Assembly (NCBI RefSeq): GCF_003334785.1
Contig: NZ_QOWV01000001.1
DNA from: Escherichia coli
Lineage (GTDB): Bacteria > Pseudomonadota > Gammaproteobacteria > Enterobacterales > Enterobacteriaceae
DNA: 64,000 nt
Strand: one strand, 5' to 3'
Below are positions 17,428 through 17,466 of this stretch, in pieces (position 1 is the stretch's first letter; each line of letters opens with the position of its first letter). The translations under genes and the position numbers were made by a program. Under the pieces are notes generated by a model that had not been told where the DNA came from, searched no databases, and saw nothing but the letters and a program-made list of their open reading frames with translations.

Positions 17428-17466
17428 TGATTCGTGTTTTTAATTAATTCACGAAAACTGGAATCG
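17428..17466 (+). promoter_or_regulatory. Candidate PaaX repressor operator in paaA promoter region (TGATTC-N27-GAATCG)
   Basis: Inverted hexamers TGATTC (17428-17433) and GAATCG (17461-17466) separated by 27 bp, just upstream of paaA start; matches remembered PaaX operator architecture TGATTC-N27-GAATCA with one mismatch. Confidence 0.45.

What the first reader, a model, noticed from the sequence alone, without database searches (positions are those of the whole stretch)
17428..17466. PaaX-type operator overlapping the paaA promoter/leader
TGATTC-N27-GAATCG lies immediately upstream of the GTG start of paaA in the paaZ/paaA divergent control region, fitting the remembered PaaX operator geometry. 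I did not find an equally good copy on the paaZ side or upstream of paaX, which may reflect degenerate half-sites there.
Basis: partly seen in the sequence, partly recalled or inferred. Interest (0 to 1): 0.3.

Follow-up and report, generated by a model that had tools for sequence, protein, structure and literature searches.

The report
Known PaaX operator before paaA
This is the already-described binding site of the PaaX repressor in the leader of the E. coli phenylacetate-degradation operon; the sequence is real and strongly conserved, but it is textbook regulation rather than a discovery.

Summary
The dyad TGATTC-N27-GAATCG is at window 17428-17466 (+), ending 13 nt before the GTG of paaA. 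It is the only exact TGATTC-N26-28-GAATC in 64 kb (0.10 expected). The window is E. coli chromosome with the paaZ / paaA-K / paaXY cluster. The published E. coli PaaX site is TGATTC(N27)GAATCA, so this copy differs at one base.

In 43 of 43 Enterobacterales loci fetched here, the same dyad lies 51-77 nt upstream of paaA. The half-sites are invariant and the spacer varies freely in sequence. An RNA-hairpin reading is not supported.

Transcription start sites inferred from a published ArcA table put the operator at about +11 to +49 of the paaA leader. That fits the report that PaaX does not act at Pa by competing with RNA polymerase, as it does at Pz and Px.

Verdict: observation confirmed, interpretation supported, already known, low interest.

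The parts
17428..17466 (+). PaaX operator of the Pa (paaABCDEFGHIJK) promoter: TGATTC-N27-GAATCG
   Evidence: Searches give the sequence and its uniqueness. Searches show conservation in 43 of 43 Enterobacterales loci. One search gives the published consensus.
17428..17433 (+). Promoter-proximal half-site TGATTC, about +11 to +16 of the paaA transcript
   Evidence: Invariant in the MAFFT alignment of 27 Enterobacteriaceae intergenic regions and in 6 divergent E. coli alleles.
17461..17466 (+). Distal half-site GAATCG, one mismatch to the consensus GAATCA; it ends 3 nt before the Shine-Dalgarno sequence AAGGTG
   Evidence: The last base is A in 40 of 43 loci and G only in the E. coli window, Citrobacter sp. 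R56 and Rosenbergiella. GAATCG is present in all 6 E. coli alleles sampled.
17424..17438 (+). 15-bp box AATGTGATTCGTGTT. It fits the motif WWTRTGATTCGYGWT that I recall from Ferrandez et al. 2000; the paper could not be read here.
   Evidence: The sequence is. The motif itself rests on my own memory. The same motif fits 17253-17239 on the minus strand (TTTATGATTCGCGAT).
17210..17249 (-). PaaX operator of the Pz (paaZ) promoter. On the + strand it reads TGTTTC-N28-GAATCA. The strong half-site is at 17244-17249. The operator spans about -26 to +14 of the paaZ transcript.
   Evidence: GAATCATAAAA is nearly invariant across genera. The paaZ start site of about 17223 is inferred.
27053..27090 (+). 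PaaX operator of the Px (paaXY) promoter: TGATTC-N26-GAAGCG, with a degenerate right half-site in E. coli. The left half-site overlaps an extended -10-like TGCTATGAT at 27047-27055.
   Evidence: A perfect TGATTC-N26-GAATCA lies at -39 from the paaX ATG in about 18 other genera.
27092..28042 (+). paaX, the repressor gene
   Evidence: TIGR02277 PaaX_trns_reg, E = 2.7e-123; PDB 8A39, E. coli PaaX.
17480..18409 (+). paaA, first gene of the repressed operon
   Evidence: for the ORF and for the RefSeq annotation.
15150..17195 (-). paaZ, the divergent gene
17352..17367 (+). CRP-type site TGCGAAATCCGTCACA upstream of Pa, centred about 58 to 62 nt upstream of the inferred start site
   Evidence: TGCGA-N6-TCACA is a conserved block in 27 genera, with TCACA invariant. 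CRP(+) is listed for the paaA operon.
17372..17425 (+). Published ArcA-P binding site (four direct repeats) covering the Pa core promoter; it ends 2 nt before the PaaX left half-site
   Evidence: Park et al. 2013 Table S4, mapped to the window by exact sequence.
17418..17418 (+). Approximate paaA transcription start, accurate to about 4 nt
   Evidence: Inferred from the entry '-46 to 11' for ArcA site 1451843-1451896 in Park et al. Table S8. It was not read from the primary mapping paper.

Best explanation
This is the operator through which the repressor PaaX shuts off the paaABCDEFGHIJK operon of E. coli. Two 6-bp half-sites in inverted orientation, TGATTC and GAATCG, lie 33 bp apart centre to centre. 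That is about three helical turns, so both face the same side of the DNA. They sit in the transcribed leader of paaA, from about +11 to +49, between the -10 region and the Shine-Dalgarno sequence. PaaX, encoded 9.6 kb downstream, binds both half-sites when phenylacetyl-CoA is absent and leaves them when it is present. Because the site is downstream of the start point, repression at Pa most likely acts after RNA polymerase has been recruited, by blocking open-complex formation, promoter escape or early elongation. At Pz and Px the equivalent dyads overlap the core promoter and exclude polymerase. Shown here: the sequence, its statistical rarity, its conservation, the presence of paaX, and its position relative to published sites. 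Taken from the literature: PaaX binding, the consensus, the inducer, and the different mechanism at Pa. Inferred: the post-recruitment block.
For: The dyad is exact at the stated coordinates and unique in the window. The published E. coli PaaX consensus is TGATTC(N27)GAATCA, PaaX represses Pa, Pz and Px, phenylacetyl-CoA is the inducer, and PaaX competes with RNA polymerase at Px and Pz but acts differently at Pa (review PMC9493321). The paaA operon is listed as CRP(+), IHF(+), PaaX(-). paaX is in the window. All 43 Enterobacterales loci carry TGATTC-N26-28-GAATC[AG] 51-77 nt upstream of paaA, as 40 distinct sequences with a 78% A+T spacer of no conserved sequence. In a pattern-independent MAFFT alignment the half-site columns are invariant. 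Six E. coli alleles that are 93.5-100% identical over 371 bp keep both half-sites unchanged. Two of the three hits with at most one mismatch in 64 kb fall in the 284-bp control region, against 0 of 5000 shuffles. The start sites inferred from Park et al. 2013 place the Pa dyad in the leader and the Pz dyad across the core promoter.
Against: No binding data can be generated here. The primary footprinting papers (Ferrandez 2000, Kim 2004, Galan 2004, del Peso-Santos 2006, Fernandez 2014) are not in the library, so the match to the footprint rests on a review and on my memory of the 15-bp motif. The right half-site departs from the consensus at its last base. The paaA start site is inferred indirectly and the source table is internally inconsistent by about 3 nt: a 54-bp site is described as '-46 to 11'. 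The post-recruitment mechanism is an inference from position only.
Confidence: 0.95

Rival explanations
1. The dyad encodes a hairpin in the paaA 5' leader RNA that controls translation or mRNA stability, rather than a protein-binding site on DNA.
For: The dyad lies inside the inferred transcript. In E. coli it contains a nested inverted repeat, TTCGTG / CACGAA. The predicted RNA fold of the site is -8.0 kcal/mol.
Against: For 40 distinct orthologous sites I shuffled only the spacer and kept the half-sites. The real sequences are no more stable than the shuffles: mean z = -0.08, t-test p = 0.51, and only 1 of 40 has z below -2. The same dyad occurs at Pz and Px in positions that straddle the promoter, partly outside the transcript. 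Only the outer hexamers are conserved, which is the pattern of a protein-binding site.
Confidence: 0.02
2. The dyad is a chance inverted repeat in an A+T-rich intergenic region.
For: The region is 32% G+C, and short inverted repeats are frequent there: 15 pairs in 371 bp.
Against: The expectation is 0.10 per window for the exact pattern and 0.0044 per intergenic region for one mismatch or fewer. The dyad is present in 43 of 43 loci across families of Enterobacterales while the spacer has diverged completely.
Confidence: 0.01
3. The hexamers are bound by another regulator of this promoter (ArcA, CRP or IHF), and PaaX binds elsewhere.
For: The published ArcA-P site ends at 17425, 2 nt from the left half-site, and its footprint is reported to reach +11. 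TGTGA at 17426-17430 resembles a CRP half-site.
Against: The hexamers match the published PaaX consensus, not the ArcA direct repeat (TGTTA-like) or the full CRP dyad. The same hexamer pair recurs upstream of paaX itself, the pattern expected of an autoregulated repressor gene. The conserved CRP-type site is elsewhere, at 17352-17367.
Confidence: 0.02

Closest known systems
PaaX operator of the E. coli Pa promoter (Ferrandez, Garcia and Diaz 2000; consensus TGATTC-N27-GAATCA from Kim et al. 2004, as cited in PMC9493321)
   Same: Same organism, same promoter, same half-site sequence and same 27-bp spacing. In all likelihood it is the very site that was footprinted.
   Different: Nothing substantive. 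The right half-site ends in G rather than the consensus A, a feature of the E. coli Pa site itself: it is unchanged in all 6 E. coli alleles sampled.
PaaX operators at Pz (paaZ) and Px (paaXY) in the same cluster
   Same: Same hexamers, with spacings of N28 and N26, and the same repressor.
   Different: Those dyads overlap the core promoter. Pz spans about -26 to +14, and the left half-site of Px overlaps an extended -10-like element. PaaX is reported to compete with RNA polymerase at both. The Pa dyad lies downstream of the start site. Each has its own weakened half-site in E. coli: TGTTTC at Pz and GAAGCG at Px.
PaaX boxes of Pseudomonas (del Peso-Santos et al. 2006), with possible counterparts in the Moraxellaceae loci fetched here
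   Same: The review says a sequence similar to the E. coli site was found for Pseudomonas sp. Y2 PaaX.
   Different: I recall the Pseudomonas half-sites as GATAC / GTATC rather than GATTC / GAATC; that paper could not be read. Some Acinetobacter loci here show TGATAC-N27-GTATCA-like dyads. Their PaaX is only about 39% identical to the E. coli protein.
PaaR (TetR-family) operators of Burkholderia, Thermus and Corynebacterium paa clusters
   Same: They serve the same function: repression of paa genes relieved by phenylacetyl-CoA.
   Different: The repressor family is unrelated and the operator is a compact 15-bp inverted repeat (ACCGACCGGTCGGTT), not a long-spaced dyad.

Membership tests
PaaX operator (E. 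coli type) | Inverted hexamers TGATTC and GAATCA separated by 26-28 bp | tested here: met
   TGATTC-N27-GAATCG matches 11 of 12 specified bases. The consensus is from PMC9493321.
PaaX operator (E. coli type) | Located in the control region of a PaaX-repressed transcription unit (Pa, Pz, Px or pac) | tested here: met
   It lies 14-52 nt upstream of the paaA start codon in the paaZ/paaA divergent region. The paaA operon is listed as PaaX(-).
PaaX operator (E. coli type) | A cognate paaX gene in the genome | tested here: met
   Window 27092-28042 matches the TIGR02277 equivalog at 411 bits against a cut-off of 265, and matches PDB 8A39 at E = 1e-206.
PaaX operator (E. coli type) | Half-sites under purifying selection while the spacer drifts | tested here: met
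   43 of 43 Enterobacterales loci and 40 distinct sequences; half-site columns are invariant in MAFFT and the spacer carries little information. Six E. coli alleles agree.
PaaX operator (E. coli type) | Bound by PaaX in vitro and released by phenylacetyl-CoA | not testable with these tools
   Reported for Pa and Pz target sequences in the review. The primary papers are not held.
PaaX operator (E. coli type) | Contains the 15-bp box WWTRTGATTCGYGWT | tested here: met
   17424-17438 reads AATGTGATTCGTGTT, and 17253-17239 on the minus strand reads TTTATGATTCGCGAT. The motif is recalled from memory of Ferrandez 2000, so it is a lead, not an independent test.
cis-acting leader RNA hairpin | Structure more stable than composition-matched controls across orthologues | tested here: not met
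   Spacer-shuffle z-scores have a mean of -0.08, p = 0.51, n = 40.

The most novel reading that the evidence does not exclude
The most novel reading not excluded concerns how PaaX engages the site. The half-sites are always 32-34 bp apart centre to centre, and the intervening DNA is A+T-rich (78%) with no conserved sequence. PaaX might therefore engage the operator as two dimers, or wrap or bend about three turns of DNA. At Pa this complex would sit wholly inside the transcribed leader and act as a post-recruitment block rather than a classical promoter occluder. A smaller point is that E. coli has weakened the distal half-site at both Pa (GAATCG) and Px (GAAGCG), where most related genera keep perfect GAATCA. 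That would amount to lineage-specific loosening of repression.
Probability: 0.25. Interest if true: 0.3.

Novelty: already known. Interest (0 to 1): 0.08.

Why it matters
It matters little as a discovery. The site was footprinted in 2000 and its consensus published in 2004. The useful by-products are a corrected map of all three PaaX operators in this window and a comparative data set of 43 loci. That set shows how rigid the half-sites and spacing are and how free the spacer is. It could guide modelling of the PaaX-DNA complex, which a 2022 review said had not been solved, and the design of phenylacetyl-CoA biosensor promoters.

Tried and rejected
- **Primary papers.** I tried to read Ferrandez 2000 (DOI), Galan 2004 (PMC374417), del Peso-Santos 2006 (PMC1483010), Diaz 2001 (PMC99040) and Tropel 2004 (PMC515250). 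None is held, so exact footprint coordinates could not be checked.
- **E. coli PaaX structure paper.** Two literature searches for a paper on the E. coli PaaX crystal structure (PDB 8A39) found nothing.
- **Promoter scan.** The sigma-70 consensus scan found no convincing Pa, Pz or Px promoter, only one minus-strand match at chance level. Start sites were therefore inferred from published ArcA-site positions.
- **Plasmid collection.** A tblastn of PaaA against plasmids returned mostly Ralstonia, Sinorhizobium and other distant clusters. It was useless for footprinting this operator.
- **RNA hairpin.** This reading was tested and rejected.
- **Other motif hits.** The hits at 12183 (TGATTCGCG, inside the 500-aa ORF 11069-12571) and 40878 (inside a 585-aa ORF) are at chance frequency and were dismissed.

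Full report
**Observation**

It lies in the 284-bp, 32% G+C gap between an ORF on the minus strand that ends at 17195 and a 309-aa ORF that starts with GTG at 17480.

The pattern TGATTC-N26-28-GAATC occurs once in the 64-kb window on both strands. One hundred dinucleotide-preserving shuffles give a mean of 0.10.

**Context**

The 501 bases around the site are 100% identical to many complete E. coli chromosomes. There the two flanking genes are annotated paaZ and paaA, and 3132 of 5426 E. coli genomes carry the region.

The ORF at 27092-28042 is PaaX. It matches the NCBIfam equivalog TIGR02277 at 411 bits against a cut-off of 265. It also matches the E. coli PaaX chain of PDB 8A39 at E = 1e-206.

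**What is known**

- A 2022 review states that the E. coli PaaX binding sequence is TGATTC(N27)GAATCA.
- The same review says PaaX represses the Pa, Pz and Px promoters, and that phenylacetyl-CoA rather than phenylacetate releases it.
- It also says PaaX competes with RNA polymerase at Px and Pz, whereas the mechanism at Pa is different.
- Regulon tables list the paaA operon as CRP(+), IHF(+), PaaX(-).
- The primary papers are not in the library.
- From memory, Ferrandez et al. 2000 defined a 15-bp box, WWTRTGATTCGYGWT. This fits 17424-17438 on the plus strand (AATGTGATTCGTGTT) and 17253-17239 on the minus strand (TTTATGATTCGCGAT) exactly. The degenerate positions of the motif are precisely the differences between these two 15-mers. 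I treat this as a lead, not a test.

**All copies in the window**

A scan for TGATTC-N26-28-GAATCA with up to one mismatch gives three hits against 0.5 expected:

| Window position | Sequence | Location |
|---|---|---|
| 17428-17466 | TGATTC-N27-GAATCG | Pa, upstream of paaA |
| 17210-17249 | TGTTTC-N28-GAATCA | paaZ side |
| 40878-40916 | TGATTC-N27-AAATCA | inside a 585-aa ORF, taken as chance |

None of 5000 shuffles of the intergenic region produced two hits. The copy is there, with its perfect half-site distal to paaZ and a weakened half-site next to the paaZ ribosome-binding site.

Upstream of paaX the best match is 27053-27090, TGATTC-N26-GAAGCG, with two mismatches.

**Comparative test**

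One scan of species-representative genomes with PaaA returned 80 loci. Fifty-nine have the divergent paaZ/paaA arrangement, and most carry paaX about 9.6 kb downstream.

- All 43 Enterobacterales loci carry TGATTC-N26-28-GAATC[AG] 51-77 nt upstream of the paaA start. This set includes the window itself and spans Leclercia, Citrobacter, Enterobacter, Klebsiella, Kluyvera, Cedecea, Buttiauxella, Providencia, Xenorhabdus, Serratia and others.
- The 43 sites comprise 40 distinct sequences.
- The spacing is N28 in 25 loci, N27 in 15 and N26 in 3.
- The last base is A in 40 loci. It is G only in the E. coli window, Citrobacter sp. R56 and Rosenbergiella.
- The spacer is 78% A+T and carries almost no positional information.
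- In a MAFFT alignment of 27 Enterobacteriaceae intergenic regions, made without reference to the motif, the half-site columns are invariant and the spacer is scrambled.
- The Pz proximal half-site block GAATCATAAAA is also nearly invariant.
- Upstream of paaX, about 18 genera have a perfect TGATTC-N26-GAATCA at -39 from the ATG. It sits inside a conserved GTGCTATGATTCA block that reads as an extended -10 (TGnTATGAT). E. coli alone in that set has GAAGCG.
- Within E. coli, six alleles that are 93.5-100% identical over 371 bp keep both Pa half-sites unchanged, GAATCG included.

**Position relative to the promoters**

The consensus promoter scan was uninformative. Park et al. 2013 (PMC3798270) list the ArcA-P site at paaA as U00096.2 1451843-1451896, '-46 to 11' relative to the mapped start site. 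They list the paaZ site as 1451736-1451756, '-62 to -42'.

The paaA site sequence maps exactly to window 17372-17425. This gives a paaA start near 17418 and a paaZ start near 17223. The paaA figures are internally inconsistent by about 3 nt, so I give the start to within about 4 nt.

| Operator | Position relative to its own transcription start |
|---|---|
| Pa | about +11 to +49, between the start site and the Shine-Dalgarno AAGGTG at 17470-17475 |
| Pz | about -26 to +14, across the core promoter |
| Px | left half-site overlaps the extended -10-like element |

This geometry accounts for the published statement that PaaX excludes RNA polymerase at Pz and Px but works differently at Pa. At Pa the repressor sits in front of the polymerase rather than on its binding site. 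A block after recruitment is my inference; nothing here tests it.

**Rival explanations**

- **Leader-RNA hairpin.** This is plausible because the dyad is transcribed, and E. coli has a nested repeat TTCGTG/CACGAA. I folded 40 distinct orthologous sites against controls in which only the spacer was shuffled. The mean z-score is -0.08 (p = 0.51) and only one site falls below -2. There is no selection for pairing beyond the hexamers.
- **Chance.** Excluded by the statistics and the conservation.
- **Binding by ArcA or CRP instead of PaaX.** Unlikely. The hexamers match the PaaX consensus and recur upstream of paaX. The conserved CRP-type site is a separate block, TGCGAAATCCGTCACA at 17352-17367.

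**Verdict**

The feature is the experimentally characterised PaaX operator of the E. coli Pa promoter, so it is already known and of low interest.

The modest additions from this work are:

- the missed Pz copy;
- the demonstration that the E. coli Pa and Px distal half-sites are weaker than the near-universal GAATCA of related genera;
- a 43-locus footprint that fixes the half-sites and the 26-28 bp spacing while leaving the spacer free.

Noticed in passing
It straddles the inferred Pz core promoter, and its proximal half-site block GAATCATAAAA is nearly invariant across 27 genera.
   Followed up: yes
window 27047-27090: Upstream of paaX, the block GTGCTATGATTCA reads as an extended -10 (TGnTATGAT) fused to a PaaX left half-site. 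The right half-site is GAAGCG in E. coli but a perfect GAATCA, 26 bp away, in about 18 related genera.
   Followed up: yes
window 17372-17425: The published ArcA-P site with four direct repeats (Park et al. 2013) covers the Pa core promoter and ends 2 nt before the PaaX left half-site. Anaerobic and substrate-specific repression therefore use abutting sites.
   Followed up: partly
window 17352-17367: The CRP-type site TGCGAAATCCGTCACA is a conserved block in all 27 Enterobacteriaceae aligned. Against the inferred start site its centre falls at about -58, not the canonical -61.5. Either the inferred start is off by a few bases or the spacing is unusual.
   Followed up: partly
L015, L017, L021, L025, L026 (paaA upstream, about -53 from the start): In these loci the spacer contains a third, inward-facing half-site (GTGAATCA or TTGAATC) about 11-13 bp after the left half-site. 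This gives TGATTCAC...GTGAATCA...GAATCA. Whether it offers PaaX an alternative short-spaced dyad is unknown.
   Followed up: no
L022 (Cedecea neteri), L023 (Enterobacter sp. Ag1), L052 (Serratia oryzae), L039 (Xenorhabdus mauleonii): No paaX homologue was found in the sequence held downstream of paaA, yet the Pa dyad is perfect. paaX may lie elsewhere in these genomes; this was not checked. A 2026 survey also reports Cedecea clusters without a local regulator.
   Followed up: no
L041-L058 (Acinetobacter and other Moraxellaceae): PaaX is only about 39% identical to the E. coli protein. The intergenic dyads have GATAC / GTATC-like arms (for example TGATAC-N27-GTATCA in L048), which resemble the Pseudomonas-type PaaX box as I recall it rather than the enterobacterial one.
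   Followed up: partly
L004 (contig JAEYLX010000046.1, labelled 'Bacillota bacterium' MAG): It encodes a PaaA 95% identical to the E. coli protein. This is almost certainly an enterobacterial contig mis-binned into a Bacillota MAG.
   Followed up: no
window 27001-27032: A G+C-rich inverted repeat, CTGGCCCTGG...CCAGGGCCAG, lies between the ORF that ends at 26991 and the Px region. It has no T-run, and the terminator scan found nothing. It may be a REP-like element or a partial terminator separating the upstream operon from paaXY.
   Followed up: no
L085 (E. coli DH5alpha, NZ_CP045741.1): RefSeq annotates paaA as a pseudogene with an internal stop in this laboratory strain record.
   Followed up: no
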